This document shows positions 36,303 through 64,000 of a DNA stretch of 64,000 bases, piece by piece (position 1 is the first letter of the stretch; each line of letters starts with the position of its first letter). Source of the stretch: a virus (taxonomy: Duplodnaviria > Heunggongvirae > Uroviricota > Caudoviricetes); IMG/VR virus record IMGVR_UViG_3300014043_000277; one strand, written 5' to 3'. The notes below the pieces were generated by a model, which worked only from the letters and a program-made list of their open reading frames with translations, was not told where the DNA came from and ran no database searches. The translations under genes were made by a program, and so were the position numbers.

Positions 36303-37430
36303 TCAGTCCTTGACTGTTTTTGTCAGGATGAACACATTGCCGTCAATGCTTCCATCCGGCAGTACAGATTCGAAAATCACAGGGACATCATCATCAACGT
36401 ATTTAATCATGAGTTTTTCAGTTGAAACACTCATTATTGCCTTTTTCAGTTCATCATGAGAGAACTGCATGACTGTCCGGGAATCATTATTCGCATCAAC
36501 GGAAATCTTATCACTGGGTGATGAATTGCCATTGGAACTGACTCCCAGTTCACCATTCTCCGCCGTCAATACGATTACACGACGGATTTGATCCGCGCCT
36601 GCAAGTGAAATGGCGATATCAGCGGATGTCAACAATTCATTGCGGTTGACAGTGAATGTTTTCTCATTCTCACGGGTTTCAGGACGAGTTGCGGCTGATT
36701 TGATTTTCATCCAATTCAATGCTTTCGCTGTCTGCTTGCGGACAGTTGCAACCATTCCGTTATCAAAAATGAATTTCATGGATTCATCCGATTCCTCAAT
36801 GTCAATGCGCTCCGATGCCGCTTTCAACAGGCAGTTATCAGGAAGCACAAGGAAACGTGAATCATTTGCTCCTTCGGTTTTCTCAAATGGTATGGATTCC
36901 ACGACAAGAGTGAATTTATCCGTTCCCATGACATCAATCCTATCCTTGCCGAAAGTCAAATCAAGCATGCTGACAGCACCGAGCTGAGCGCCTGTTGCGA
37001 TTTTAGCTGTTTTCACTGCGTCCATGAAATCATTGTAATCAACTGCTCCGAGCGATTTGAATTTCTCACGGTCAGATGCAAGGGTTCCGAGGCTGCTCAT
37101 GACGGCAACAGGGAATTTCAAATAACCGTAAGTGATGGATGCCTTATCATCATTCAAATCAAGTTCAACAGGACCATCCGCTTTCTTTTTTGACAATGCT
37201 CCCATCATTTTAATGAGATGAGGACTGGAAAGCGAAAAAGTATGCTTCTCAGTCACTTCCTCAGCATAAGCGGCCTGAACGCGCGAGGAACGCATGCCCT
37301 GGTCGCCTTCCGCGCGGAAAACAACATATCCATCCTCATGCACGTCAACAAGCGTATATGATTCGCGTGAAACGCGGGTTGTCCAATCCACGGCATTCAT
37401 AAGAGCCGCAGCGTCAATGGTAACTTTCAT
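36303..37430 (-). CDS. dnaN: Divergent DNA polymerase III beta sliding clamp
   Basis: 375 aa; three-domain periodicity (MKVTIDAAALMNAVDW; VDYNDFMDAVK; VNRNELLTSAD); VMGTDKFTL matches the clamp ATDxxRL motif. Confidence 0.7.
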   Translation of the reverse strand: MKVTIDAAALMNAVDWTTRVSRESYTLVDVHEDGYVVFRAEGDQGMRSSRVQAAYAEEVTEKHTFSLSSPHLIKMMGALSKKKADGPVELDLNDDKASITYGYLKFPVAVMSSLGTLASDREKFKSLGAVDYNDFMDAVKTAKIATGAQLGAVSMLDLTFGKDRIDVMGTDKFTLVVESIPFEKTEGANDSRFLVLPDNCLLKAASERIDIEESDESMKFIFDNGMVATVRKQTAKALNWMKIKSAATRPETRENEKTFTVNRNELLTSADIAISLAGADQIRRVIVLTAENGELGVSSNGNSSPSDKISVDANNDSRTVMQFSHDELKKAIMSVSTEKLMIKYVDDDVPVIFESVLPDGSIDGNVFILTKTVKD

Positions 37431-40489: not shown

Positions 40490-40513
40490 GTGAACATAAA
40501 ATGAAAAACGCTC

Positions 40514-40636
40514 ATTTCAATTCTGATGGAAATTTTATGCGTTTTGTGAGCCACCCATCGAAAACAGGGTTTTCAGCGCTTACGATTAAAACAGCCGTCC
40601 ACAGAGCACAATATTTTCAGCCCTGTGGACGGCATC
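40514..40636. repeat. 123-bp dispersed repeat, copy B
   Basis: Same orientation and length as 13243-13365; conserved blocks gttttgtgag, tcgaaaac, ccgtccacagagc, aatatt, ctgtggacggcatc. Confidence 0.85.
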
Positions 40637-51585: not shown

Positions 51586-54500
51586 TTATTTTGAACTATT
51601 GGATGATTCGGAATCCCATGCCGGATTATGGAAGAACCAGTAATTTGAGCCTTGTTTGCCACCAGCCGCCTCAATTTGCGCTTTTGTCATGGTTCTGCCG
51701 CCATTATAGCCTTCCCAGCATCCTGATGACGCGCAATTGTAATTACCTTCTGAGACAGTGATTTTCCAGCCTGATGGATCATCCTCTACTTTTTCAATGA
51801 CCATGACATGTCCTGTTGGACTGCCGGATGAACCTAATAATCCATAATATGATAAACCATCGCCAACGGCTGGCTTATCAGGATTAGTCCATCCATGCGC
51901 AGTCGCGTTCTGACCTATTTGACCACCGTTACCCATATATGACCAGTCCTTATTCCCATGCAGCATGTAAAGACGAGTCCATGCATACCATACGCACTGA
52001 TAACGAAATGGCGCTGCGATCGGACCATAATCACCTGATTTGCATACTTTCACTGGCGTGTCACATAACCAGCTGTAATCGCCTTTACCGACCTTGAAAT
52101 CAGTGTTCGCACCTGTATTATTCTTAGACATCATGCATTGGACTGATGAATCTGCGTTTTTTGTTGTTGACGGATTGGATGAATCCGTTCCATCGCCGCC
52201 TTCCGCGAGTTTATCCGGTTGAGCCTCAATGCTTTCACAATTAAACTGATCACAAGCCTGTTTAGCCCATGCTACAATCTGATCGACTTTTGACTGCCCG
52301 TCTGAAAGAGAGACGCCCTCATAGAATTGAGACCAATCTTTCGCGGCTTGGCCTGGGTCTGATGCGGCACCAACTGTCGTTTTTGCTTGATGATATGAAC
52401 CGTTTAATTCAAAACCAACAAGCTTTAATTCGTTTTCCATTGTTAACGTGGAATCATCGCCTGCTTTAATGGAACCTTCCGATGTTATACGATTACCATT
52501 CACGCTATTGGAATAGCCTGACCATTGGAAAATACCTGCGACGCCACCGCCTGTGTTTTTCGCTTTCGGGTCAAAACCAGATTCACGCATTGCAACAGCA
52601 AGTGCTCCGGCAGCACCAGCGCCGCTGAATCCCATTTCCTTCGTAAGATATTCAAAAATCTGTTTGGCATTCTCGCCGCTGAAATCACCTGCCGCGCCAG
52701 ATGACGTTCCTGTGTCACTTGTTGAATTGCCCGGCGCGCGCAGAACATATGACATGTCCGATGGAATGTCATTTGATGTTGCAATTTCATCGCCTTTCTG
52801 ATCGCCAGCCTGCGGCCCAGTGATGCCACCATTCTCATCATGATGAGCACCAGTGAATTTACCATCACCGGAATAAATTTCCGTATGATGATCGCTCCAC
52901 ACGATATCACCGCGTTTCAGAACGCTTGTATCATGACCATCCCATGAGATTTTCTGGAAACCAGCAGCCTGCAAAACACCGCCTTCCGCGCCGGCCTGAT
53001 CAATATTGCTTCCAGTTGCGAAAGGATAATTAATGCTTAATTGTATACCAGCGCCTTTCGTCACGGCAAAATACACTAATGATGAACAATCATAATCAGG
53101 ATTACCTTGACGATTCGGCTGTGAATAACCATGTGAATCATCCGCTGCTATTTTCTCAGCCCAGGACGCAATGGCTTCATTGCCGCCACCGGAACCATCC
53201 TTGCTTGGACATAAAATACCACCATTGCCATAAGTATACAGGCATGTTGCGATAATCATTGATATTACAACAATGACAGTAATTATCCATGTTACAGGAC
53301 TTGTTACGACAGATGCGATGCTCTTAGCCAAGTTCACAATCCTGTTCGCGAGCTGTTGAGCGCTGCGAATGGCGTTCTGAGCAATCCTGTTCGCGCCACC
53401 GAGCGCTTTCGCCGCAGCGTTGGAACCACCATGTTTCCATGCCCAGTTACCGACATTGCTTCCAAGTTTGCCAATGGATGATTTACCCGGACCGAACAGA
53501 TTACCATCACCGTTCTTCTGCATGCGTCCATTGATGGCATTGGCGACATTTGACAAACCATTGTTAACACCATCGCTTGCTTTCGCCGCAGCGTTGTTAA
53601 TCGCGGCATGAGCATCAGGTTTCGCATCAGCAAAACCAGTGTCAATATGCTTCTGGCCATTCCTATCCTCAGTCCATCCATTCTCATCAGGCTCCGGTTC
53701 ATCCATGAACTCATCAGTTGATGGCGTGTCCAAATCGCCATCAACCATGCCATCATCATAATCCGCAGGATTCTCACTATCGGATGGTATTCCAGTCTGT
53801 CCACTGTCATCTGTTGGCATGTCCGCATTGTCATCGGAATCATTCCCATCAGGAACCTGCATTGGCGTTTCGTCGGCGGATGGAGTGGATGATGAATCAG
53901 GATTATTAGCCTGCTGGTTCTGATTAATCACTGGCGAATCATCATTATTAGTGGTTGCATTGGATTCATTGTTCGCATTAGTGTTCGTACCATCCCGCTG
54001 CGGTTTATGCGGTAAACGGGTTTGCGCCGGTTGTTCCTGACCCTGAGCGGTGGCGGGAACGGCTGTTGCAGCAGCGGCAGAGGATGGCTTATGCGGTAAT
54101 GGTTTGCGCACGGCAGCGGCAGCTGCTCTTTCCTTAGATGTTTTAGGAAGAACCGTCTTTTTACCTGTTTTCGCTGAGGAACCTACATTATTAAGATACT
54201 TGGCATATTGTTCCTTATACACTGAGGGCAGATTGGACGCATCAACCATTTTTGATAAACGCGCTTTTTCATCAGGCAATGCTTCTCCTGCTGGCATGTC
54301 ATTAATCATGCCAGCATATGCTTTCATGTTGTCATTTAATTCACTTATCTGCTCATCGTTGGTTTTACCCTGGAATTCAACAAGAAAATCCCGTTCAATA
54401 TTCGCCATGTAAGCATCTGTTTCAGATGATGGCGTTTCAGTGCCGTCAGTTCCATCATCGGAATCAGCAGGAATGAAATCATCAGGATTGAAATCAGTAT

Positions 54501-54723
54501 TATCCAGTTCACCGAAATCAATGTCATCAAGATTAAAAGATTCAGCCTGAGCGTCAACGTTATCCGCAAGCTGATTGAATCCGGAAACATCAGGCATGGG
54601 CGGATTTACAGGCATGCTGGAATTAGCGGATTGAATGGTTTCATTCACTGCTTGCAGCTTCTCTGCTTTCGCCTGTTCATCAATTCGTTTAGCTTCCGCA
54701 TCCGGATTCATATTCTTATCCAT
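51586..54723 (-). CDS. Conjugative cell-wall hydrolase (VirB1-like): low-complexity N-region, TM, NlpC/P60-like amidase, phage-tail-lysozyme domain, CHAP
   Basis: YDCSSLV...HHTEIY; FEYLTKEMGFSGAGAAG...RESGFDP...GIFQWS; YQCVWYAW...GHVMVIE...SEGN. Confidence 0.85.
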   Translation of the reverse strand: MDKNMNPDAEAKRIDEQAKAEKLQAVNETIQSANSSMPVNPPMPDVSGFNQLADNVDAQAESFNLDDIDFGELDNTDFNPDDFIPADSDDGTDGTETPSSETDAYMANIERDFLVEFQGKTNDEQISELNDNMKAYAGMINDMPAGEALPDEKARLSKMVDASNLPSVYKEQYAKYLNNVGSSAKTGKKTVLPKTSKERAAAAAVRKPLPHKPSSAAAATAVPATAQGQEQPAQTRLPHKPQRDGTNTNANNESNATTNNDDSPVINQNQQANNPDSSSTPSADETPMQVPDGNDSDDNADMPTDDSGQTGIPSDSENPADYDDGMVDGDLDTPSTDEFMDEPEPDENGWTEDRNGQKHIDTGFADAKPDAHAAINNAAAKASDGVNNGLSNVANAINGRMQKNGDGNLFGPGKSSIGKLGSNVGNWAWKHGGSNAAAKALGGANRIAQNAIRSAQQLANRIVNLAKSIASVVTSPVTWIITVIVVISMIIATCLYTYGNGGILCPSKDGSGGGNEAIASWAEKIAADDSHGYSQPNRQGNPDYDCSSLVYFAVTKGAGIQLSINYPFATGSNIDQAGAEGGVLQAAGFQKISWDGHDTSVLKRGDIVWSDHHTEIYSGDGKFTGAHHDENGGITGPQAGDQKGDEIATSNDIPSDMSYVLRAPGNSTSDTGTSSGAAGDFSGENAKQIFEYLTKEMGFSGAGAAGALAVAMRESGFDPKAKNTGGGVAGIFQWSGYSNSVNGNRITSEGSIKAGDDSTLTMENELKLVGFELNGSYHQAKTTVGAASDPGQAAKDWSQFYEGVSLSDGQSKVDQIVAWAKQACDQFNCESIEAQPDKLAEGGDGTDSSNPSTTKNADSSVQCMMSKNNTGANTDFKVGKGDYSWLCDTPVKVCKSGDYGPIAAPFRYQCVWYAWTRLYMLHGNKDWSYMGNGGQIGQNATAHGWTNPDKPAVGDGLSYYGLLGSSGSPTGHVMVIEKVEDDPSGWKITVSEGNYNCASSGCWEGYNGGRTMTKAQIEAAGGKQGSNYWFFHNPAWDSESSNSSK

Positions 54724-54728
54724 GTTAA

Positions 54729-55457
54729 TCAGATGACCTCCATTATGTCCGCTATTCTATCCCCGGCATCACGAACCGTATACATGTATTCAGTTCTCAT
54801 CGTATTCACCATCACTGTCGGAAGACGATTCTCCAGAATCGCATTTGATGGAATACGTTCACGGAAATTACCCGTGCCGCCATACATTGATGTTCCCAGC
54901 ATTATGCTTTGATCCAACGCGAACCTACGAATGTTTAAATTGAATGGTTGTCCATTCGCTGATTTATCAATGAATGGAATGACTTTCCTGCGAATTGTTT
55001 CAGGTTCCGCATGTTTGTCGAATCCTCCCAATAGCGAAACTGAATCACCGCTTTTCCATAATGCCACCCATGCGCCATCATCATTGGAAAGTACGCTCAT
55101 CGCAATATAGCCAGTTCCAAGACTGACCTCAATGAGAACATATGATGACAATTCAGTGATTATCATTCCGAGCTGATAACCCATGAGCGAAACAAGCCTG
55201 TCATTCGCATTGAATTCATGCAAGCCAATGGAATCATCAAATCGTGTTTCCAATACGTTATCAGCCATGAGAGCAGCATAACCACCCATGAGGAAATTCC
55301 GGTCCTGTAAACGGGAAGGCAATAATTCCAATGAATTCAATACTGCATTGCGAACAATGTCATCAGGCGCGAAATAATCAACCAGAGCATAGAATTCATC
55401 AACTCCCATACTCATGTTGACAGCTCCTGTTTCCATCATTTTCTTTTCAATGAACAT
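54729..55457 (-). CDS. Hypothetical protein
   Basis: 242-aa ORF coupled (TAATG) to the upstream VirB6-like gene and 5 nt from the hydrolase. Confidence 0.65.
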   Translation of the reverse strand: MFIEKKMMETGAVNMSMGVDEFYALVDYFAPDDIVRNAVLNSLELLPSRLQDRNFLMGGYAALMADNVLETRFDDSIGLHEFNANDRLVSLMGYQLGMIITELSSYVLIEVSLGTGYIAMSVLSNDDGAWVALWKSGDSVSLLGGFDKHAEPETIRRKVIPFIDKSANGQPFNLNIRRFALDQSIMLGTSMYGGTGNFRERIPSNAILENRLPTVMVNTMRTEYMYTVRDAGDRIADIMEVI

Positions 55458-58400
55458 TACTTCCTATCCTTCCTGCTATTACGGAAATAATCCGATGACA
55501 ATCTGCGTGCATGACGGCCTGATTTAGCGTCCTCACGACTTATTGTCCCTTTTCCGAAATTGTCAATTTTGCTTTGCAATTCATCACTGTTAATTCCGCT
55601 GCGTTCCATTGCCGCTTGCACAACCGGGGAATCCAAACCTTCACCATTACGCAAAGCGGTTTGAACAGCATAAACATCCTTAGCATAATCAGCAGCTGCC
55701 TGACCCTGCATACCTGCGCCTGATGGATTCACGATGTAATCAGCGATGGCATTCGCCTCATTGGCACCGCTTATCTGATCACGTTGATGTTGTTTCAATG
55801 CTTCCATGTGCGCGACTTGATCAGCCATTTCCTGCTGTCGTGCAGCCGCTTTCTCGGCATCACGCTCAGCGAATGTCCTGACATGCGGTTTCGGACGTTC
55901 ACGGCGAGAACGTCGAGATTCCTGCTTGCTTTCGTTTGCGGCGGGACGCTGCTCCTGCGTGCGCGCAGGTTCCTGCTGTGAATGCGTTTCAAATGGATTA
56001 TTCTGAGCAGAAGATGTTGTCTGTGTCACTGGACGCTGACTTGATTCAGGTTTCCTGCTGGCGGATGGTTTCTGCCGGGATGAACCAGTCGGTCTTGTTC
56101 CGCCGAATGCCTGCGCGGTTGTATCCATGTTGCGTTCATATCTGCGTTCATTGCCAGTCGTGATATAATGCGCGGCCTCGGCAACACCATGAGCAGCGGC
56201 GCTGACTGCGGCTGCTCCATCAAGAGCAGCTTCTCCGACGCGCGTGCTGCCAAATGAATCCATGACATCATTCGTCTTATTGATTACAACATCAGCTGCG
56301 GCTTTCGCAGTGAATTGAGCCGCATCCGCGACGCGGCGTGGAGCATCAGCGACACTCTGAGCGGTTTGTTTCACGGATTCCTTCGTATCATGGATTGCCT
56401 GCCGCGCATCAGTTCGATAACCACCGGCATCACGATATTGCTGAGCCTGAGTCAAATCCATTTGCGCTTGTTGAGCGGCAGCACGATAAGCAGCGGCTGC
56501 ATCCATGTCGCCATTCGCTGCTGCGGATGCGGCAGACCAGTTAGCGTTATCCAATCGTTCCTGCGCCTCATGGATATCCAGGTTCGCCTGATGGTTGCCC
56601 ATTACTGTTGCGGCACCATCAGCAGCGGCGGACGCGGCACGGGACGCCACTTGTCCACCGACTTCCACTGCGCGTGATGCGACACCGGCACCGGCATTAC
56701 CGACATTCTTCAATGTATCCATGCGTGCAGCGCCGTCAGTGATTGATGTAGGAACAGCAACACCGGATAGCCCCTTGCTTTCCAGATCCTGTTTCAAACC
56801 ATTCAGACGTTCAATTTCTGAATGCGACCACATAGCACCTGATGAACGAGAAGTTACCGAATCGGCAATATTGCGAATCTGATCAGCTTTCGCGTGCAAT
56901 TGTTCAGCGTTAGCATGGGCCTCATTATAAGCGGCTTTCAAACCTAGAGCTGAACGGCTGGATACACGTTTGGCTTCAATGCCGTCAATCTTGCTTTGCA
57001 AGCCCTGCGCGCGCTGCTTGGCAAGCGCGAACGCGCGATCACGTCCAGTGTTGCCATTCTCATCCTTTCCTTCAGCAGCTATTTTAGCTATGTCAGTTCC
57101 ATCAAACTCACCTGATGCAAGAGCCTGTTCAAACTGATCACGCACATAATCATCACGATTATTATACTGCTGGTATTCAGCGTGATTATCAACGGCGTTC
57201 TTATCGTTAATCGCCGCGTTCAATGCATTATACTTCTTCTCGTCGCCTTCATTAGCGAATTGCCATTCATAATGAGTACCGTCTTCCGACAACTTGCGGA
57301 TGCCCTGAGATTGCAATTCATTAAACGCTTGCTGGTTCGCCCTGAAAGCATATTCCATTGCCATGTGGTCATTCTTGTCTTTCGCGGAATACGTTCCAGT
57401 CGCGGCATCGAATTTAACCTTATCTGCCCCGCCATTAGCATACCAATCAGCGAACTTCTGATCATCCTCCATTGCTTGTTGACGTTCAGCGTTATTAATG
57501 GTATCCATTGCCATTGAACCGGCAGCATCCTCATCGCGAGCGGCCTGAACCTGCTGAGCCGCAATGTTGTCAATGTCAACACCATTAAGGTTGTCATAAT
57601 CCAATATCTGTCCGTTCTCATCAACAAGACCCTGCTGAGCCGCACCATTGAAATCATTGAATGCGGCCTGCTCAGCGGCGCGCGCATCAGCATCTTGACG
57701 TTCAGTTTCCTCCTTCAATCGTTCGGCTTTCTTAATGGCATCATTACGGCGTTTATCATAAATTCTATCAGCTGACTGGAATGCATTGCCGACAAAACCG
57801 CCTTTCCTCTTGCCTTCCTGCATGAACTGATACTTGCCCATATCAGAAGCAGAACGCAGACGATCACCGAGCGAACCACCACCCGCCATGAAACCGGCGA
57901 GCGCACCGGCACCGGCAGCGCCTTTCAAATCATCAGCCGTCCGCATCGCTTTCTTCCATTTTTCACCGAGCGCATTGGATAATTTCTTGCCCCCAAGATC
58001 GACATTACCGAAAATTTCAATGAGTTCGGGCTGGTATGTTTTCAATGTGACCGTCATTGCAATCACGAACACAAGAATCAAACCGGCGTTTGACGTGGAA
58101 CCGAGAATGGCTCCGTAAATTTCCACCACCATGCTTATCCACATGATGATAAAGAAATATTTAAGGATTGTTCCGATTTCCAGTTCAAGCCATCCGAGGA
58201 AAATCTTCTTGCCTGTTGTCGGATGAATTCCCACAAGCATGAAAATCGGCGCGAATACTGTCAAGATTGTTCCCATGAACAAATAACCGATTGCCTGCAC
58301 TGCAGCGCCCGGATTTTCAAATGAGAAACCGACGATAATCATGAAAAAGCAGAAACTTGCAATAATGGATACAAGCGCAAGGGAAGCACGGGTGAAGCCT

Positions 58401-59848
58401 GCACTGCCATTCCACATTAAATATGAATGAGAAACATTATCCGAACCCTCACCGGTATCAGAACCAGCCTGAGTCATCGTGTAAATGATATAATACCAGT
58501 CATTGTAAACATTTGCATTCGTTTTAATCTTAGATGATGAATGATAATCACCGCATCCTGATCCCATGCCATCATGGACATCAGTCATCAAATCCAATTG
58601 ATATAATGCAATGTTATGATAAACAGGGCTTCCCTTGCATAGTTCGCCTGTTGACGCCGCTGTAAGGCTCACGCCTGCATTCTCCCATATTTTACCAACC
58701 TCATCCTTATCCTTAACGGATGTGACAAGTTCAGATTGGTTATAGGTTCCGACTTGTTGACCTTCCAACGCCTCATAACTCATGCCGAACTGACCCTGCG
58801 CCCATGGTTCCAGCATGAATGCCTTCCATATTTTGCATGTGCTCATGCGCGCATCAATGGCAAGATGATCACTCATGTTAATGCTCTTATTCGGATCAAT
58901 AAGGCATAATGTCGCTGGATTAGCAGTTGTATCCACTTCTTTCACTTCTGACGTGTTCTCAGTTGACAGGCAGGACCGCCCATTCAATGATTCAATGACA
59001 CATGAACCCAGCATGACCGATGCATTCATTGGCGCGGCTGCGACAAGCATAGGATTGGATAACACTATGACGCCAAGAATGAATGACAGTATCGCCCATC
59101 CGAGGCCGAACCATGCATTCCTTGTCTGTCCTTTAACAATGCCTTTCCACAGCATCCAGACAGCGACAGTGACGAAAACAACACTGGCAAGACCAAGATA
59201 TAAACCATGATAAAGATTACCTATGATTCCACCGTCATCGGAACCATCTCCGCCGATTATTCCAATCAGATTAACGCAGAAACCAGTAGGATTCTTAGGA
59301 TCCTGACAAATAAGATTCGGGTTCACTGCCCATGTTACGAACATACTTGTGAATTTGACAACCAGACTTGATATGAACAATATTATATTCGCAAGCATTG
59401 ACATGAGAGATTTAGTTACGCAACCGATTCCATCATGCTGCTCATCAGCCATTTCCTGGACGGCTTTTTTCTTATCGTCATCCGTTGCGTTTTTCAACTG
59501 GCCGAAATCAAAAACGCCTTTCTTATCATCCGCGACATTCTTGCCATTCCATGTCGTCCATACAAGAGACCCGGAATACACATCCATCGCGGAATATTTA
59601 CCACCTGAATCCATGATGGTGTCAGTGCCGTCAGTCAAGGAATCCTTAGATGAACGATATGACGTTTCAAGACCAAGATCGGAACCGCACATCAAATCAT
59701 TAATGAATGCAAGCGCGTTTGAATTATTAGCGAAAGCGACGGGAACGACAAGCGCCATTGTCATCAATGCCACCATAATGGATACAATTATCCGTTTCAA
59801 GCCTCCTGCGCGATAAGTAACATCGCCGTGTCCCACATAAGATGTCAT
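55457..59848 (-). CDS. Giant VirB6/TrbL-like protein (paralog 3, 1463 aa)
   Basis: Same core motif MSTCKIWKAFMLEPWAQGQFG; TM clusters; Ala-rich helical tail. Confidence 0.7.
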   Translation of the reverse strand: MTSYVGHGDVTYRAGGLKRIIVSIMVALMTMALVVPVAFANNSNALAFINDLMCGSDLGLETSYRSSKDSLTDGTDTIMDSGGKYSAMDVYSGSLVWTTWNGKNVADDKKGVFDFGQLKNATDDDKKKAVQEMADEQHDGIGCVTKSLMSMLANIILFISSLVVKFTSMFVTWAVNPNLICQDPKNPTGFCVNLIGIIGGDGSDDGGIIGNLYHGLYLGLASVVFVTVAVWMLWKGIVKGQTRNAWFGLGWAILSFILGVIVLSNPMLVAAAPMNASVMLGSCVIESLNGRSCLSTENTSEVKEVDTTANPATLCLIDPNKSINMSDHLAIDARMSTCKIWKAFMLEPWAQGQFGMSYEALEGQQVGTYNQSELVTSVKDKDEVGKIWENAGVSLTAASTGELCKGSPVYHNIALYQLDLMTDVHDGMGSGCGDYHSSSKIKTNANVYNDWYYIIYTMTQAGSDTGEGSDNVSHSYLMWNGSAGFTRASLALVSIIASFCFFMIIVGFSFENPGAAVQAIGYLFMGTILTVFAPIFMLVGIHPTTGKKIFLGWLELEIGTILKYFFIIMWISMVVEIYGAILGSTSNAGLILVFVIAMTVTLKTYQPELIEIFGNVDLGGKKLSNALGEKWKKAMRTADDLKGAAGAGALAGFMAGGGSLGDRLRSASDMGKYQFMQEGKRKGGFVGNAFQSADRIYDKRRNDAIKKAERLKEETERQDADARAAEQAAFNDFNGAAQQGLVDENGQILDYDNLNGVDIDNIAAQQVQAARDEDAAGSMAMDTINNAERQQAMEDDQKFADWYANGGADKVKFDAATGTYSAKDKNDHMAMEYAFRANQQAFNELQSQGIRKLSEDGTHYEWQFANEGDEKKYNALNAAINDKNAVDNHAEYQQYNNRDDYVRDQFEQALASGEFDGTDIAKIAAEGKDENGNTGRDRAFALAKQRAQGLQSKIDGIEAKRVSSRSALGLKAAYNEAHANAEQLHAKADQIRNIADSVTSRSSGAMWSHSEIERLNGLKQDLESKGLSGVAVPTSITDGAARMDTLKNVGNAGAGVASRAVEVGGQVASRAASAAADGAATVMGNHQANLDIHEAQERLDNANWSAASAAANGDMDAAAAYRAAAQQAQMDLTQAQQYRDAGGYRTDARQAIHDTKESVKQTAQSVADAPRRVADAAQFTAKAAADVVINKTNDVMDSFGSTRVGEAALDGAAAVSAAAHGVAEAAHYITTGNERRYERNMDTTAQAFGGTRPTGSSRQKPSASRKPESSQRPVTQTTSSAQNNPFETHSQQEPARTQEQRPAANESKQESRRSRRERPKPHVRTFAERDAEKAAARQQEMADQVAHMEALKQHQRDQISGANEANAIADYIVNPSGAGMQGQAAADYAKDVYAVQTALRNGEGLDSPVVQAAMERSGINSDELQSKIDNFGKGTISREDAKSGRHARRLSSDYFRNSRKDRK

Positions 59849-59930
59849 GTAAAATCCTCATTAGATAACCGGTTTATATCTGGATAATATCTATCAATCA
59901 GCATAAAACAATCATAATGCTTAAAATAAA

Positions 59931-59968
59931 ATAAAACCGGATAATAATGACGAATCATCCGGTTTTAT
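59931..59968 (-). terminator. Terminator-like hairpin after PIN-PhoH gene
   Basis: 12-bp arms ataaaaccggat / atccggttttat. Confidence 0.6.
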
Positions 59969-60010
59969 CATTAATATGTTCTAATGATTACATGAACGCA
60001 TGTGAGAATT

Positions 60011-61360
60011 TCATCTTCCCAGCAGATTACTGGCAAGCTGAGCGAGTTCACTGCGTTCGGATTTAGTGAAATCAATATGCGCGAACATGCGATTATCACG
60101 TAAATCATTAATGAGTTGTAATATTGATGTGGATTCTGAAATATACGGGTTATCATTCTGCAGAATGTCAAAAGTGAGAACAATGCGTGTGTTCTTACCG
60201 AGACGAGCGAGGATATCCAAAAGCGTGGTCCTATCCAATGATTGCGCATCGTCAACAATAATGAACGCATCGTCCAATGTCCGTCCACGCAGGAATGAAA
60301 TCGGGGAAACCTCCAAATCATCCTCATGGCGTTTTTTCAATGAATCCACATCAGACGCCGTTTTCTTACCGCTTGACATGCGATCAATCCTGCCGACATT
60401 ATCCCATACTGCCTGCGACCATGGAGCTATCTTATCATCAATGTCGCCCGGAAGGAAACCCATTTTCTGCTGGCCGAGTTCATACATGGAACGGAATACT
60501 ATCACCTTGTCAACCTTGCCTGCTTTCACCTCATGCATGCCTTCCGTCAATGCAAGGAATGATTTACCGGCACCGGCGACACCGCCTAGAGTAACAACCT
60601 GAATGCTCTCATCATTAAGATAACTCATCGCCATCTCCTGTTCAAGGTTCTTAGGACGGAACGCCTTGCCCATATTCACATTAGGATCCAATGCATGCAG
60701 TTCATCACCTTTCTTAATGACGTAATTTTCATTGCCGTCAGTGTCAATGATACGGATGATAAGATGATACGGCATGGAACCGCCACGCTCCTTGACTTCC
60801 GTTTCAATGAATTCAAAAATGTCATCATCATCCACATCATTCAATGGTTTGAACGCATGCATGGTATATAAGCCAGTGAATTGCTTGACGTTACTGTTAC
60901 CATATTCTGATGCTTTCAAACCGAGGCCGATATCCGCTTTCAAGCGCATTGGCAGATCATTGCTTATGATTTCAACCTCACGTCCGGTTTCCTTTTTCAA
61001 ATTAGCGGCTATCGCAAGGATTTTACTGTCATTCCTGTCATCCGCGAGTTCACCGAGAACATCCATGTTAGTATGATCGGTTTCAATGCGGACAGTGCAT
61101 CCATTATCAATCACCGCGCCGGAACCGGACAATGTTTCACCACCGAATTCCTCACGCAGTTCCTCAATGTAATGCAATACAGCTCGGCATGCCCATCCTG
61201 AACCGACATCGCCGCGATGTTCCTCCAATTCCTGCAACACTATCATGGGAATGACAATGTCACGGTCATGCATCCTATGGAAAGGTGCGTCCGCCGCGCC
61301 TATGAACACGTTAGTGTCAATGACGGAAATAATCCTGTCCTTCTTACTTCGAGCAGCCAA
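60011..61360 (-). CDS. PIN domain + PhoH ATPase fusion (PhoH2/YlaK-like)
   Basis: PIN: VIDTNV, LQELEE, NDSKIL, SNDLPMR. PhoH: GVAGAGKS, FLRGRTL, IVDDAQ, RLGKNTR, SERSELA. Confidence 0.9.
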   Translation of the reverse strand: MAARSKKDRIISVIDTNVFIGAADAPFHRMHDRDIVIPMIVLQELEEHRGDVGSGWACRAVLHYIEELREEFGGETLSGSGAVIDNGCTVRIETDHTNMDVLGELADDRNDSKILAIAANLKKETGREVEIISNDLPMRLKADIGLGLKASEYGNSNVKQFTGLYTMHAFKPLNDVDDDDIFEFIETEVKERGGSMPYHLIIRIIDTDGNENYVIKKGDELHALDPNVNMGKAFRPKNLEQEMAMSYLNDESIQVVTLGGVAGAGKSFLALTEGMHEVKAGKVDKVIVFRSMYELGQQKMGFLPGDIDDKIAPWSQAVWDNVGRIDRMSSGKKTASDVDSLKKRHEDDLEVSPISFLRGRTLDDAFIIVDDAQSLDRTTLLDILARLGKNTRIVLTFDILQNDNPYISESTSILQLINDLRDNRMFAHIDFTKSERSELAQLASNLLGR

Positions 61361-61432
61361 TTTTACAACTCCTTCATTTGAATGTTTAATTATATAATCC
61401 TGTTTATGAAACCGGATTTGAATACAATGATA

Positions 61433-62140
61433 TCAGGCAGCTGCATTCACAGGAATCCTGTTTTTCAATGAGAACCTGATTACGCCATCATCCGGGTGCC
61501 TGAACGCGGCATCCCATTTGCCGCGAATGTCAGATGCGACATTGCTTCCGAATGCAATCTGACTGTATAATGGCGTCATGCCACCAACTGTCATCATGGT
61601 ATCGCAGAATTCAGCAAGTTCACCAATGAGACGATTATTCTTACGGAAAGATTCCATCATGATGACATTGGATTCACAGCATGATGCAAGCATTCTCAAA
61701 TCATTCATTATGAGCGTTTTACGGGCATCACTGACGCCATGGAACAGTTCGCAGGGTGAAACCATAAGGATGTGCCTGTAATCTCCTGTAAGAGCCGTTT
61801 TCAAGGCTTTACGGGCATTATGAGATGATTCATTGCAATCAATGATAATGGATGCTTTCAATGATGACAATTGCATGCGATACCATTCACGCAGAATATT
61901 GAATTGTCTATCTGAGGACGGTGAGAAAAGCACCATTGCGTTCCCGTGTTTGGTCAAATCCATGATAAGCGGATGTTCCTGCGAAAAACCGAGTGATAAC
62001 CACAGCATTCCCTGATTCAACATTTGCCTTCCGACGCTTCCGAACAGATTTGACATGAACCGAATCTCCGTTCCCATTATCATGTTTTCATTCAAATAAT
62101 ATCTATCCTTAAAACTCATGAGAAACATATATGTCTTCAT
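61433..62140 (-). CDS. Possible degenerate RecA/SF4-helicase-fold protein
   Basis: KTLIMNDLRMLASCCESNVIMM and IGELAEFCDTMMTV echo the DnaB/RecA-fold C-terminal motifs; no Walker A visible. Confidence 0.45.
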   Translation of the reverse strand: MKTYMFLMSFKDRYYLNENMIMGTEIRFMSNLFGSVGRQMLNQGMLWLSLGFSQEHPLIMDLTKHGNAMVLFSPSSDRQFNILREWYRMQLSSLKASIIIDCNESSHNARKALKTALTGDYRHILMVSPCELFHGVSDARKTLIMNDLRMLASCCESNVIMMESFRKNNRLIGELAEFCDTMMTVGGMTPLYSQIAFGSNVASDIRGKWDAAFRHPDDGVIRFSLKNRIPVNAAA

Positions 62141-62275
62141 TCATGAGAACATTATTGCTATCAATCATGTGAGAGGACACCGCACTTCAGGGCGGTGATG
62201 AATCACACACGCATAACCAACTCTCTATGTAGTGCTTTCAATCGAGAATGTTATCTGATATTTTTAAATCAAACT

Positions 62276-62304
62276 TTGCATTATCCAAGATGATATGATA
62301 TTAT
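62276..62304 (+). promoter_or_regulatory. Housekeeping-sigma promoter of the tnpB remnant
   Basis: TTGCAT (62276-62281), 17 nt, TATTAT (62299-62304) with TG extension; ATG 7 nt downstream. Confidence 0.65.
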
Positions 62305-62311
62305 AGTAAGT

Positions 62312-62484
62312 ATGAGTTCATACAGGCGTTATAATTATCGGCTGCTTTGAATATTCTTGACGCGGCTGGACTAGCCGAGTCGTTAAACGCCCGTAGAGGT
62401 GATGTAAGACGGAGGCTGGCGCAAGCAAGTCGCAACGCTGACGCCAATGATGCGGGAACCCACCGAACCGCAAGCCTCCATTAA
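62312..62484 (+). pseudogene. tnpB: tnpB remnant: first ~10 codons fused out of frame to the last ~47 codons
   Basis: MSSYRRYNYR (TnpB-like start) joined at about 62341 to AALNILDAAGLAESLNARRGDVR... (post-zinc-finger NAAxNI segment). Confidence 0.8.
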
Positions 62485-62562
62485 GGCGACCAGCGTAGGA
62501 ATCCCACGCCTGAAGGCGTGGGAGGAAGTCAACATGATGAACACATTGGGCACAATAAAAAA

Positions 62563-62595
62563 AATCAGCGACAGAAGCGGTTTCTGTCGCTGATT
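62563..62595. terminator. Intrinsic terminator (possibly bidirectional)
   Basis: 14-bp perfect arms aatcagcgacagaa / ttctgtcgctgatt. Confidence 0.7.
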
Positions 62596-62629
62596 CAAAT
62601 GGAATCATATTATGTGTTCAATCAATCTA

Positions 62630-63526
62630 TCACGGATGGCTTGGGCCTGTCGCAGCGTTCAACGTTGACTGGCTCCATGCCGCGATGGCGGATTTCTTTA
62701 TCTCAAACCGCTGAACATTCCTTGTTGATGTCGTGATGTTCAAATCAGTATCATAATTAATAGTAGTGTCTTCCGTGTAATGCTGGTTCGTTATTGGATT
62801 ACCGAGGAAGAAATTGCCACACCAGTCCTTCACTTCAATGTTAATCTGATCTGACTGGCTACCTGAAACACCGCGATTGCCAGCATCGCTTCCAGTGGTT
62901 ACAGTTTCACCATTTGACAATGAATTCTGCCTATCTGACGCTTTACTGCAAGTTATCTTTATTTTGAATGCCGTGTATCCATAATCAGAATCCGCTGTTT
63001 TCACATCCATGCCTTTCGCAAGGGCAAGCTGACGATAGGTTGCAACCTGAATGGAATCCGCATTCGATGCTACATCATTATCAATATTGCCATCAGTGTA
63101 AGCATCCTCATTGTAAACACTGTCCTTCATATCTGATTCGGATGCGGAAATGAAATCATTCGCATCCGCACGGCCTGTTTTAATCAAATATGTTTTCAAT
63201 GCAAGCTGAGTGGACAAACCGACTTTACTGGAACCATCCTGACCGGTTTTCACGGCGTTCACGGCACCGTCCCTTGTCAGCCATCCTGTGTTCGTGCATT
63301 CAATGTTACCAATACCATCCTGCGCACGAATACCTGCCTGAACTGATTCCAATGCTATCTCCTCCAAATCCGAGCGGACAACCACGTTTTTTGAAAAATC
63401 GAGGCTCCATCCTATCATGAGAATGAAAAACGGGAAACAACATACGACGGTAACAATTACGGAATCCGCCTCATCGCTTGTTAATTGCGAATTCACATAT
63501 TTCAAATAATCCCTGAACATACTCAC
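62630..63526 (-). CDS. TadE/TadG-like pilus accessory protein
   Basis: N-terminal hydrophobic helix then DFSKNVVVRSDLEEIALESVQAG, typical of Tad pseudopilin N-domains; several Cys. Confidence 0.6.
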   Translation of the reverse strand: MSMFRDYLKYVNSQLTSDEADSVIVTVVCCFPFFILMIGWSLDFSKNVVVRSDLEEIALESVQAGIRAQDGIGNIECTNTGWLTRDGAVNAVKTGQDGSSKVGLSTQLALKTYLIKTGRADANDFISASESDMKDSVYNEDAYTDGNIDNDVASNADSIQVATYRQLALAKGMDVKTADSDYGYTAFKIKITCSKASDRQNSLSNGETVTTGSDAGNRGVSGSQSDQINIEVKDWCGNFFLGNPITNQHYTEDTTINYDTDLNITTSTRNVQRFEIKKSAIAAWSQSTLNAATGPSHP

Positions 63527-63534
63527 CTCCTATC

Positions 63535-64000
63535 TCAGGCAGCGCAATCACTTGCAAGGCATACTTCTGACTGTGCTGACATTCGTAGAATACCGGAATT
63601 GAAACCATGTCCTGATTCATCAGCATCTTTTGATGTTGACTCCGCATTATCATCACGAATATTATTCACATCATCAGCCTGTGAATAACCAAAATGATTC
63701 CATCCGCCAATGAGACTCATGCTTCCACCCGGAATGCCTTCATACCAGTATTTTGCCTCGCACCATGTCGCCTGACCTATTTTCTTAGTGAGATCCGGTC
63801 CGCATTTCACATCATATATATTGAAAGCAATATAACCTTTATTCTGCACAATGCCGACTGCGGTTTCGCATGCAACCATGTCATCACCTGCAACCACTTG
63901 ATGCCCGTCAGCTGTCTTAACCTGTTTAATAAAAACATCTTCAGTGCTTCCCCCACTGGCATTGGATAATGACACTCTCGTATTGCATGCATTGACATCA
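63535..64000 (-). CDS. Probable TadE-like pseudopilin, 5' end outside the window
   Basis: Frame is open to the window end; Cys-containing beta-rich domain directly upstream of the TadG-like gene. Confidence 0.45.
   Translation of the reverse strand, partial: DVNACNTRVSLSNASGGSTEDVFIKQVKTADGHQVVAGDDMVACETAVGIVQNKGYIAFNIYDVKCGPDLTKKIGQATWCEAKYWYEGIPGGSMSLIGGWNHFGYSQADDVNNIRDDNAESTSKDADESGHGFNSGILRMSAQSEVCLASDCAA

What the first reader, a model, noticed from the sequence alone, without database searches (positions are those of the whole stretch)
62169..62552. Mini IS200/IS605 element reduced to promoter + TnpB guide-RNA cassette
Seen: a deletion joins codon ~10 of tnpB to its last ~47 codons, leaving an intact -35/-10 promoter, about 190 nt of the 3' end, and both subterminal hairpins. 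The right end has GAAT before the hairpin and terminal TCAA. GAGA before the left hairpin would predict a TCAT left cleavage site, and TCAT occurs at 62165-62168 and 62141-62144. Known: GAAT/TCAA is the IS608 right-end guide/cleavage pair; TnpB omega/reRNA derives from the 3' end of tnpB plus the right end, and the flank supplies the guide. Inference: a protein-less cassette that could load TnpB in trans with guide catgatgaacacattggg... and cut element-free alleles of competing plasmids, while staying mobilisable by TnpA.
Basis: partly seen in the sequence, partly recalled or inferred. Interest (0 to 1): 0.75.

Follow-up and report, generated by a model that had tools for sequence, protein, structure and literature searches.

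The report
Protein-less mini TnpB transposon keeping guide RNA
This is a 371-bp gene-less miniature of an IS200/IS605 (TnpB) insertion sequence that recently jumped into a giant gut plasmid-like element and still carries the promoter and the whole guide-RNA scaffold; this kind of element is already described, but its empty and filled sites in nature are unusually well documented here.

Summary
The element is real, but it spans window 62162-62532 (371 bp), not 62169-62552. Near-identical replicons with an empty site (L002, L003, L026/L027) show a precise insertion 3' of GCTAT (62157-62161), with no duplication.

It is a deletion derivative of a tnpA-less tnpB insertion sequence. It keeps:
- the left-end hairpin
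- the tnpB promoter and codons 1-10
- the last 191 nt, which hold the whole covariation-supported RNA scaffold
- the right-end hairpin and terminal TCAA

At least ten copies exist, each at a different site. They include a 96.5% identical sister copy 7.9 kb away on the same replicon and one copy with an intact 428-aa TnpB. Four different internal deletions all keep the promoter and end 4-34 nt upstream of the scaffold. This suggests selection for a promoter-plus-guide-RNA cassette.

No cognate TnpB or TnpA lies on the ~85 kb I could read; the only TnpB there is 25% identical.

Guide-RNA-bearing PATEs that need TnpB in trans were described by Meers et al. 2023. This scan had already flagged the sister copy on the same genome (e1-1730421). 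Verdict: a new member of a known kind, of modest interest.

The parts
62157..62161 (+). Target / transposon-adjacent motif GCTAT (flank, not part of the element)
   Evidence: It is present in the empty alleles. It lies 5' of 9 of 10 copies; the tenth has GTTAT.
62162..62532 (+). Whole miniature IS200/IS605 element (PATE-like), 371 bp
   Evidence: It is the exact insertion relative to L002, L003 and L026. It is 96% identical end to end to the copies in L018 and L031.
62174..62177 (+). Left-end DNA guide AGGA, directly 5' of the hairpin foot
   Evidence: By the IS608 pairing rule (from my own knowledge) it predicts C-T-x-T, which matches CTAT. The B. longum relatives have GGTA with a CCAT flank, so guide and flank co-vary.
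62178..62197 (+). Left-end subterminal hairpin (8-bp stem with one A.G mismatch, TTCA loop)
   Evidence: conserved in all copies.
62198..62274 (+). AT-rich spacer holding short remnants of the deleted tnpA (minus strand)
   Evidence: Local matches to both ends of tnpA in L001. The same spacer is present in the tnpB-only parent.
62275..62304 (+). tnpB promoter-like site: TTTGCA, 18 nt, TG-n-TATTAT
   Evidence: conserved in all eight aligned copies. It predicts a start near the ATG at 62312, that is, a leaderless transcript (inference).
62312..62350 (+). Residual 12-codon ORF (tnpB codons 1-10, then out of frame); deletion junction at 62340/62341
62348..62532 (+). Omega-RNA (reRNA) scaffold region
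   Evidence: Consensus structure of 53 pairs: 97.2% of cells paired, 12 pairs changed on both sides, 0 of 500 shuffles as good, slid controls 31-47% paired.
62499..62502 (+). Right-end DNA guide GAAT
   Evidence: invariant in the alignment.
62503..62522 (+). Right-end subterminal hairpin (8-bp stem, loop TGAA instead of the family's TTCA)
   Evidence: The TGAA loop is shared with the sister copy at L031:2695-3065.
62529..62532 (+). Right cleavage site / transposon-encoded motif TCAA (element end)
   Evidence: All copies end in GTCAA, followed by unrelated flanks.
62533..62548 (+). Flank that would be transcribed as the 16-nt guide (CATGATGAACACATTG)
   Evidence: Position relative to the RE. 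It is identical to the target in the empty allele of L002.
62562..62596 (-). Context: intrinsic terminator of the upstream minus-strand gene (62630-63520)

Best explanation
Shown: window 62162-62532 is a non-autonomous, protein-less miniature of an IS200/IS605-family element (a PATE).
- It descends from a tnpA-less tnpB insertion sequence of the ISDra2-like TnpB clade through an internal deletion.
- It inserted precisely 3' of GCTAT, in the intergenic region between two minus-strand genes of a giant plasmid-like replicon.
- The insertion is recent: replicons that are 98-99% identical have the site empty, and a 96.5% identical sister copy lies 7.9 kb away.

Inferred: a Y1 TnpA supplied in trans moves it by single-strand 'peel and paste'. 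TnpA would use the two subterminal hairpins and the guide/cleavage pairs AGGA-CTAT and GAAT-TCAA.

Inferred: the retained tnpB promoter transcribes about 30 nt of tnpB 5' sequence, then the complete 185-nt omega-RNA scaffold, then the flank CATGATGAACACATTG. A cognate TnpB made by a full-length family member would trim and load this RNA. It would then cut any element-free copy of the site (GCTAT plus the 16-nt match), whether a donor joint left by excision or an empty allele. Recombination would restore or spread the element.
For: Insertion and mobility:
- Empty versus filled alleles show no target duplication.
- Ten copies carry GCTAT (one GTTAT) on the 5' side and unrelated 3' flanks.
- The same T1 junction occurs in four copies at four different sites: window, L018, L017 and L031. 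So the mini form itself transposed.
- The TGAA loop variant of the RE hairpin is shared by the two copies on this replicon, so that version was mobilised.

Parent and TnpB:
- The tnpB-only parent has the same LE and promoter, 95.7% identical.
- Its TnpB is intact: Pfam OrfB_IS605, Cas12f1-like_TNB and HTH domains. It matches ISDra2 TnpB 8h1j at E 1e-57, and by eye its sequence keeps RuvC-like (GIDMG, METLN, DRDWN) and Cys4 motifs.

Selection for the cassette:
- Four deletion types (T1-T4) all keep the promoter and ATG.
- All four end 4-34 nt upstream of the first helix of the RNA structure.
- Every LE-bearing copy in the fetched loci keeps the whole scaffold.

RNA structure:
- It is supported by covariation.
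- Mini copies keep it as well as full-length ones: 0-3 broken pairs of 53.

Target and co-occurrence:
- A perfect TAM-plus-16-nt target exists in a natural empty allele (L002).
- The cognate TnpB and this replicon type occur in the same metagenome, JGI 3300032038.

Literature: Meers et al. 2023 (PMC10055086) describe the mechanism and PATEs that encode omega RNAs.
Against: - There is no tnpA or cognate tnpB in the 64-kb window or in the further ~20 kb of the replicon I reached. The only TnpB there, 485 aa and inserted in nadV, is 25% identical over 204 aa and has an unrelated right end.
- No TnpA partner was found.
- The window copy has two private stem-breaking substitutions in the scaffold (G.A and C.A), against none in its 5' half.
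- Within the AT-rich lineage, paired columns vary only slightly less than unpaired ones (21% versus 32%, p 0.09). About half of the changes in paired columns break a pair.
- No Rfam family matches the region.
- There are no expression data.
- The copies were partly found with a pattern that lies inside the scaffold. This biases the sample towards copies that keep it.
Confidence: 0.5

Rival explanations
1. Same element and same origin, but in this replicon the RNA part no longer works. On this reading it is a decaying hitch-hiker. It survives only because TnpA can still move anything carrying the two hairpins, and the promoter and scaffold are kept by chance or because of deletion hot spots.
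For: - No cognate TnpB on ~85 kb of the replicon; the resident TnpB is unrelated.
- Two private stem mismatches in the window copy's scaffold, with all five of its private changes in the 3' half.
- Weak paired-versus-unpaired contrast among the copies.
- Truncated remnants of the family exist: L016 7088-7235 and a 20-nt RE stub in L018.
Against: - Four different deletions stop just short of the scaffold and all keep the promoter. This is unlikely if only about 50 nt at each end mattered.
- Mini copies L018 and L016 have 0 broken pairs of 53.
- Wobble-preserving and compensatory changes occur among the mini copies.
Confidence: 0.37
2. One reading: the cassette is a weapon of plasmid competition. 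It uses a TnpB from the host or from another replicon to destroy co-resident rival replicons that lack the insertion, rather than to keep or restore the transposon.
For: - Filled and empty alleles of the same replicon family circulate in animal-gut metagenomes.
- One empty allele is a perfect target.
- The close empty alleles (98-99% identical flanks) carry derived changes at exactly TAM -5 (G>A) and target +1 (C>T). This is what escape from cutting would look like.
Against: - The two SNPs lie in an intergenic stretch with 7 differences in about 200 nt, so the clustering is only about p 0.02 and was noticed post hoc.
- There is no evidence that filled and empty replicons meet in one cell.
- Homing or retention (Meers 2023) explains the same facts without a benefit to the plasmid.
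Confidence: 0.08
3. The insertion matters mainly as a regulatory change. Its outward promoter would make an antisense RNA across the upstream gene's terminator and 3' end, or the insertion would move upstream sequences away from the promoter of the 207-aa gene.
For: - The element sits 105 nt upstream of the 207-aa gene's start codon. It points towards the terminator and 3' end of the 296-aa gene.
- The sister copy is also intergenic.
Against: - The promoter-like sites of the 207-aa gene (62076-62124) lie downstream of the insertion point and are intact.
- Copies sit in many unrelated contexts.
- Nothing ties the family to particular genes.
Confidence: 0.05

Closest known systems
PATE-like minimal IS200/IS605 elements encoding omega RNAs (Geobacillus stearothermophilus ISGst families; Meers et al. 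2023, PMC10055086)
   Same: - No protein genes.
- LE and RE hairpins shared with tnpB-bearing relatives.
- An omega-RNA region that would need TnpB in trans, and mobilisation by TnpA in trans.
- A TAM next to the LE that pairs with an LE DNA guide.
   Different: - A different host and carrier: a giant AT-rich plasmid-like replicon from animal-gut metagenomes.
- A different TAM (GCTAT).
- The tnpB promoter is retained in every deletion type.
- Here the parent, several independent deletion derivatives and natural empty sites are all seen together.
- Nothing has been tested experimentally.
ISDra2 TnpB and its right-end (omega/re) RNA, Deinococcus radiodurans
   Same: - The family's TnpB (P0003) matches ISDra2 TnpB structures 8h1j and 8bf8 at E 1e-57 over nearly full length.
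- The RNA derives from the 3' end of tnpB plus the RE, with the guide read from the flank.
- The target motif is a pentanucleotide.
   Different: - ISDra2 has TTGAT as its TAM (my own knowledge).
- I could not compare the RNA scaffolds, because no ISDra2 RNA was available in the tools and no Rfam model matches.
- The window copy has no TnpB.
IS608 (Helicobacter pylori) TnpA end recognition
   Same: - GAAT 5' of the RE hairpin with terminal TCAA, identical to IS608 (my own knowledge).
- Insertion 3' of a short target, without duplication.
- The cleavage site is specified by the tetranucleotide 5' of the hairpin foot. The same rule turns AGGA into CTAT here and GGTA into CCAT in the B. longum relatives.
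   Different: - The IS608 target is TTAC, with LE guide AAAG.
- The spacing from the cleavage site to the LE hairpin is 16 nt here.
- The rule was applied from memory. I checked it only through the guide-flank co-variation between these two lineages.
tnpA-tnpB IS605-type element on Bifidobacterium longum megaplasmids (NZ_CP065398.1, 174.7-176.5 kb)
   Same: - 84% nucleotide identity over the last 185 nt, and 87% over the LE hairpin.
- The same promoter position and the same RE.
- Its TnpB is 75% identical to the AT-rich lineage's TnpB.
   Different: - It is autonomous (tnpA present) and GC-rich.
- Its target is CCAT and its LE guide GGTA.
- It is not the direct parent.

Membership tests
IS200/IS605 family (non-autonomous derivative / PATE) | Subterminal imperfect hairpins at both ends, no terminal inverted repeats | tested here: met
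   LE hairpin at 62178-62197 and RE hairpin at 62503-62522. Both are conserved in all copies.
IS200/IS605 family (non-autonomous derivative / PATE) | Insertion 3' of a short specific target without target-site duplication; seamless empty site | tested here: met
   Empty alleles read GCTAT|CATGATG (L002) and ACTAT|TATGATG (L003, L026). The filled allele reads GCTAT-[371 bp]-CATGATG.
IS200/IS605 family (non-autonomous derivative / PATE) | Cleavage sites specified by tetranucleotide guides 5' of each hairpin | tested here: met
   GAAT goes with TCAA at the RE. AGGA goes with CTAT at the LE, and GGTA with CCAT in relatives, so guide and flank co-vary. The pairing rule itself comes from memory of the IS608 work.
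IS200/IS605 family (non-autonomous derivative / PATE) | Sequence homology to an autonomous tnpA/tnpB element | tested here: met
   Matches to the B. longum plasmid IS at the LE, the tnpA remnants, the promoter, the tnpB start and the 3' end.
IS200/IS605 family (non-autonomous derivative / PATE) | No coding capacity, multiple copies at different sites | tested here: met
   Only a 12-codon residual ORF and an out-of-frame C-terminal fragment remain. There are at least 10 copies with different flanks.
IS200/IS605 family (non-autonomous derivative / PATE) | A Y1 (HUH) TnpA available in trans | tested here: inconclusive
   None in the window or in any fetched contig of this lineage. The homologues I sampled sit in unrelated GC-rich ISs. 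Host genomes are not available.
TnpB omega RNA (reRNA) | Encoded by the 3' end of tnpB plus the right end, with the guide read from the flank | tested here: met
   The region aligns with the 3' end and RE of intact tnpB copies: L017, L001, L004 and L012.
TnpB omega RNA (reRNA) | Conserved secondary structure | tested here: met
   53 pairs, 97.2% of cells paired, 12 pairs with changes on both sides, 0 of 500 shuffles as good. The long-range helix 1 has only one-sided changes.
TnpB omega RNA (reRNA) | Match to a curated RNA family model | tested here: not met
   No Rfam 15 hit at E<=1 in 60000-64000. This may only mean that no model of this scaffold exists.
TnpB omega RNA (reRNA) | Transcribed, processed and bound by a cognate TnpB; directs TAM-dependent cleavage | not testable with these tools
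   Needs RNA-seq and an interference assay. The cognate TnpB candidate is P0003.

The most novel reading that the evidence does not exclude
Guide-RNA-only mini elements are not debris. They would be a selected life-style: 'guide-RNA hitch-hikers' that parasitise a TnpB encoded elsewhere.
- Repeated independent deletions converge on the minimal cassette of LE, promoter, scaffold and RE.
- The close empty alleles of this very site carry derived changes at TAM position -5 and target position +1. These would be natural escape (drive-resistance) mutations.
- If so, this locus is a field record of RNA-guided allele conflict between variants of a giant plasmid.
Probability: 0.2. Interest if true: 0.6.

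Novelty: new member of a known kind. Interest (0 to 1): 0.33.

Why it matters
The locus gives a complete natural series for one TnpB transposon family:
- an autonomous relative
- a tnpB-only parent
- four independent gene-less derivatives
- two sister copies on one replicon
- filled and empty alleles of the same site, including a perfect target and a TAM/seed variant

That makes the proposed trans use of omega RNAs by PATEs, and the predicted TAM (GCTAT), directly testable with defined natural sequences. It also explains why assemblies of this replicon break at this point: contigs end inside the repeat. It does not reveal a new kind of system.

Tried and rejected
- Rfam scan of 60000-64000 at E<=1: only a chance sRNA hit, and no omega-RNA model.
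- Megablast of window 52000-64000 against plasmids, and distant blastn of the locus against phages: no match.
- No whole genome is held for this window.
- First genome contigs pattern, two conserved scaffold blocks: 0 hits.
- Three viral-contig scans (junction, scaffold, LE): 0 hits.
- MAFFT global alignment of the mini against the full-length left half was misleading. I replaced it with BLAST and manual junction reading.
- Exact look-ups of the 298-aa and 235-aa ORFs failed because the called genes start further in. The 296-aa and 207-aa forms worked.
- Hunt for the TnpA partner through homologues of the B. longum TnpA: thousands of actinobacterial hits. The two I sampled sit next to unrelated TnpBs in 62% GC contigs.
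- Search of 236 genomes of the family of G001: only full-length relatives at <=83% identity, and no mini copies.
- I tried to identify the carrier of the cognate TnpB contig through its IF3 gene. The protein is <=45% identical to any named IF3, so that contig also looks like a giant mobile element rather than a chromosome; the host is unresolved.
- tblastx of the metagenome contigs against the window plus L035 found nothing shared except the element.
- Near matches of the 16-nt guide inside the window are more frequent than in shuffles (12 versus 2.5). None is preceded by CTAT, so I rejected them as self-targets.

Full report
**What is in the sequence**

The window between 62140 and 62600 is an intergenic region between two minus-strand genes. 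The downstream gene is 207 aa as called in public contigs (61433-62056). The upstream gene is 296 aa (62630-63520) and has its terminator at 62562-62596.

I ran tblastn with the TnpB and TnpA of a full-length relative on a Bifidobacterium longum megaplasmid (L001). In the 64-kb window it finds only TnpB aa 1-10 (62312-62341) and aa 380-429 (62335-62484), out of frame with each other. It finds no TnpA.

A deletion, with its junction at 62340/62341, joins codon 10 to the last ~50 codons and leaves 191 nt of the 3' end. Both hairpins are present: LE at 62178-62197 and RE at 62503-62522. GAAT abuts the RE hairpin, and TCAA (62529-62532) ends the element.

**True boundaries**

The neighbouring 207-aa protein led to related replicons. 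In three of them the two flanking genes are only ~200 bp apart. The alignment shows a clean 371-bp insertion in the window:

- L002 reads ...TTGCTAT|CATGATGAACACATTG...
- L003 and L026/L027 read ...TTACTAT|TATGATGAACACATTG...

The element is therefore 62162-62532. It is inserted 3' of GCTAT (62157-62161) with no duplication.

The tetranucleotide next to the LE hairpin foot is AGGA (62174-62177), not GAGA. By the IS608 pairing rule (my own knowledge), GAAT specifies TCAA and AGGA specifies C-T-x-T, which is what is found. The B. longum-type relatives have GGTA there and CCAT in the flank. Guide and target therefore co-vary between the two lineages.

**The family**

One metagenome scan with a 25-nt scaffold pattern gave four contigs of JGI sample 3300032038, at 40-44% GC like the window. 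BLAST of the element against them found:

- three more complete mini copies
- three further deletion variants
- two truncated pieces
- one copy with an intact 428-aa tnpB but no tnpA (L017 8427-9910; protein P0003)

P0003's left 185 nt (LE, spacer, promoter, tnpB start) are 95.7% identical to the window element. P0003 has the three Pfam domains of TnpB and matches ISDra2 TnpB structures at E 1e-57; by eye its sequence keeps RuvC-like and Cys4 motifs.

All copies have GCTAT (one has GTTAT) on the 5' side and end in GTCAA. Their 3' flanks are all different.

The window's own replicon is covered by 100% identical contigs L031 and L035. It carries a second complete copy 7.9 kb to the right, inverted and 96.5% identical. 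That copy has the same junction and the same unusual TGAA loop in the RE hairpin, where the rest of the family has TTCA. The mini form, including the TGAA variant, has therefore itself transposed.

The site is polymorphic in nature:

- Filled in the window, L028, L029, L030, L031, L032 and L034. In all of these the contigs break inside the repeat.
- Empty in L026/L027, L003 and L002.

**Deletion types**

The coordinates below are relative to the 1487-bp tnpB-only parent. The ATG is at 151 and the first base of the RNA structure is at ~1301.

| Type | Copies | 5' break | 3' break | Note |
|---|---|---|---|---|
| T1 | window, L018, L017, L031 | 184 | 1294 | |
| T2 | L016 | 167 | ~1267 | between two GGCG |
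| T3 | L019, two copies | 289 | 1271-1294 | 18-nt filler of uncertain origin |
| T4 | L017 4882-5440 | ~154 | ~1297 | ~220 nt of other sequence in between |

T2 and T1 each keep sequence the other lacks, so they are independent events. T1 could be nested in T3.

All types keep the promoter and ATG, and all stop 4-34 nt short of the scaffold. TnpA should need only the ~50 nt at each end (my own knowledge of IS608). If so, 3' end points clustered in a ~35-nt stretch of a ~1.1-kb gene are unlikely by chance. My rough estimate is 1e-3 to 1e-4, depending on how many events are independent.

One caveat is that the contigs were found with a pattern inside the scaffold. An LE-anchored pattern run over all fetched loci found no LE-bearing copy that lacks the scaffold.

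**RNA structure**

I took twelve sequences of the last ~190 nt: eight from the AT-rich lineage and four GC-rich relatives. They give a consensus of 53 pairs in 10 helices:

- 97.2% of cells are paired.
- 12 pairs show changes on both sides.
- No shuffle out of 500 reaches any measure.
- Slid controls give 31-47% pairing.

Helix 1 pairs 62348-62356 with 62524-62531. It would define the 5' edge of the scaffold but has only one-sided (U.G to C-G) changes.

Mini copies keep the structure as well as gene-bearing ones, with 0-3 broken pairs. Within the AT-rich lineage the signal is weaker. 21% of paired and 32% of unpaired columns vary (p 0.09), and roughly half of the changes in paired columns are disruptive singletons.

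The window copy has two private disruptive changes, G.A in helix 6 and C.A in helix 8. All five of its private changes lie in the 3' half and none in the 5' half. The sister copy lacks both mismatches.

**Promoter**

TTTGCA-18-TATTAT with an upstream TG (62275-62304) ends 7 nt before the ATG. It is conserved in all eight aligned copies. A leaderless transcript is my inference.

**Cognate proteins**

None is in the window. In L035, which is the same replicon type, the only TnpB within ~20 kb to the right is a 485-aa protein splitting nadV. It is 25% identical to P0003 over 204 aa and has an unrelated right end, so it is not a credible partner.

P0003 lies on 39-kb and 100-kb contigs. They come from the sample that also holds this replicon type with the empty site. 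Those contigs share no other genes with the ~85 kb I could compare. Their IF3 gene is far from any named bacterium. No TnpA partner was found. Recent TnpA activity is inferred only from the insertion polymorphism.

**Targets**

The would-be guide, CATGATGAACACATTG, has a perfect match next to GCTAT in the empty allele of L002.

The closer empty alleles (L026, L003) have flanks with 24 differences in 3.56 kb. They differ from the filled allele at exactly TAM -5 (G>A, 62157) and target +1 (C>T, 62533). L002 shares the window's state, so these two changes are derived. Seven differences fall in the ~200-nt intergenic stretch, so two of them next to the junction is only about p 0.02, and I noticed it post hoc. 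I report it as a lead, not a finding.

No TAM-preceded near match of the guide exists elsewhere in the window.

**Comparison with what is known**

Meers et al. 2023 (PMC10055086) describe PATE-like minimal IS200/IS605 elements in G. stearothermophilus. [quoted passage not shown] They also show that TnpB cuts the donor joint to restore the transposon.

An earlier follow-up of this scan (e1-1730421) had already identified the sister copy on the same genome as the guide-RNA end of a miniature TnpB transposon. I confirmed that copy and its relation to this one.

**Verdict**

It remains unproven, because no cognate TnpB or TnpA is seen on the replicon and there are no expression data. This is a new member of a known kind.

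Noticed in passing
L031:2695-3065 (= about 70456-70826 in window numbering, beyond the window's end): A second complete mini copy on the same replicon. It is inverted relative to the window copy, 96.5% identical, flanked by GCTAT and a different guide (ATTCGCTTTGTCAAAT), and has the same TGAA loop in the RE hairpin. Public contigs of this replicon end inside these two repeats.
   Followed up: yes
window 62157 and 62533 versus L026/L027/L003: The close empty alleles carry G>A at TAM position -5 and C>T at the first target base. The more distant L002 shares the window's bases. This may be escape from RNA-guided cutting or may be chance (about p 0.02, post hoc).
   Followed up: partly
L035:630-2087 (minus strand): A 485-aa TnpB of a different family (25% identical to P0003) splits a nadV (NAMPT/NAPRTase) gene next to the primase-type Rep gene of the replicon. 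Its right end is unrelated to the mini element.
   Followed up: partly
window 62511-62514: The RE hairpin loop is TGAA, the reverse complement of the family's TTCA. This is a loop inversion inside a perfect palindrome. It is shared by both copies on this replicon, so it is compatible with transposition.
   Followed up: partly
L017:8082-8301 (minus strand): Another right-end-like terminus (…GGGAGGAAGTCAA) with a different upstream sequence lies ~345 nt downstream of the tnpB-bearing copy. It may be a second, unrelated mini element.
   Followed up: no
L018:3425-4609 and L018:2225-2243: A different TnpB gene (33% identical to the B. longum TnpB) whose 3' end shares 83% over 59 nt with the element, and an isolated 19-nt right-end stub.
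   Followed up: no
L020:4442-4966: The contig carrying the cognate TnpB encodes an IF3 that is <=45% identical to any named bacterial IF3 but has 94-97% relatives in unnamed contigs. This suggests a translation-factor gene on a giant mobile element.
   Followed up: partly
window 40513-40636 versus L016:4843-4966: The 123-bp backbone repeat of the window, noted by another reader, has an 83% match on one of the metagenome contigs that carry mini copies. This hints that the contig belongs to a related replicon.
   Followed up: no
window, 12 sites (e.g. 36324-36339): The 16-nt guide sequence has 12 matches with <=3 mismatches in the window, against 2.5 expected. None is preceded by CTAT, so this is probably compositional or codon bias of the minus-strand genes.
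   Followed up: partly
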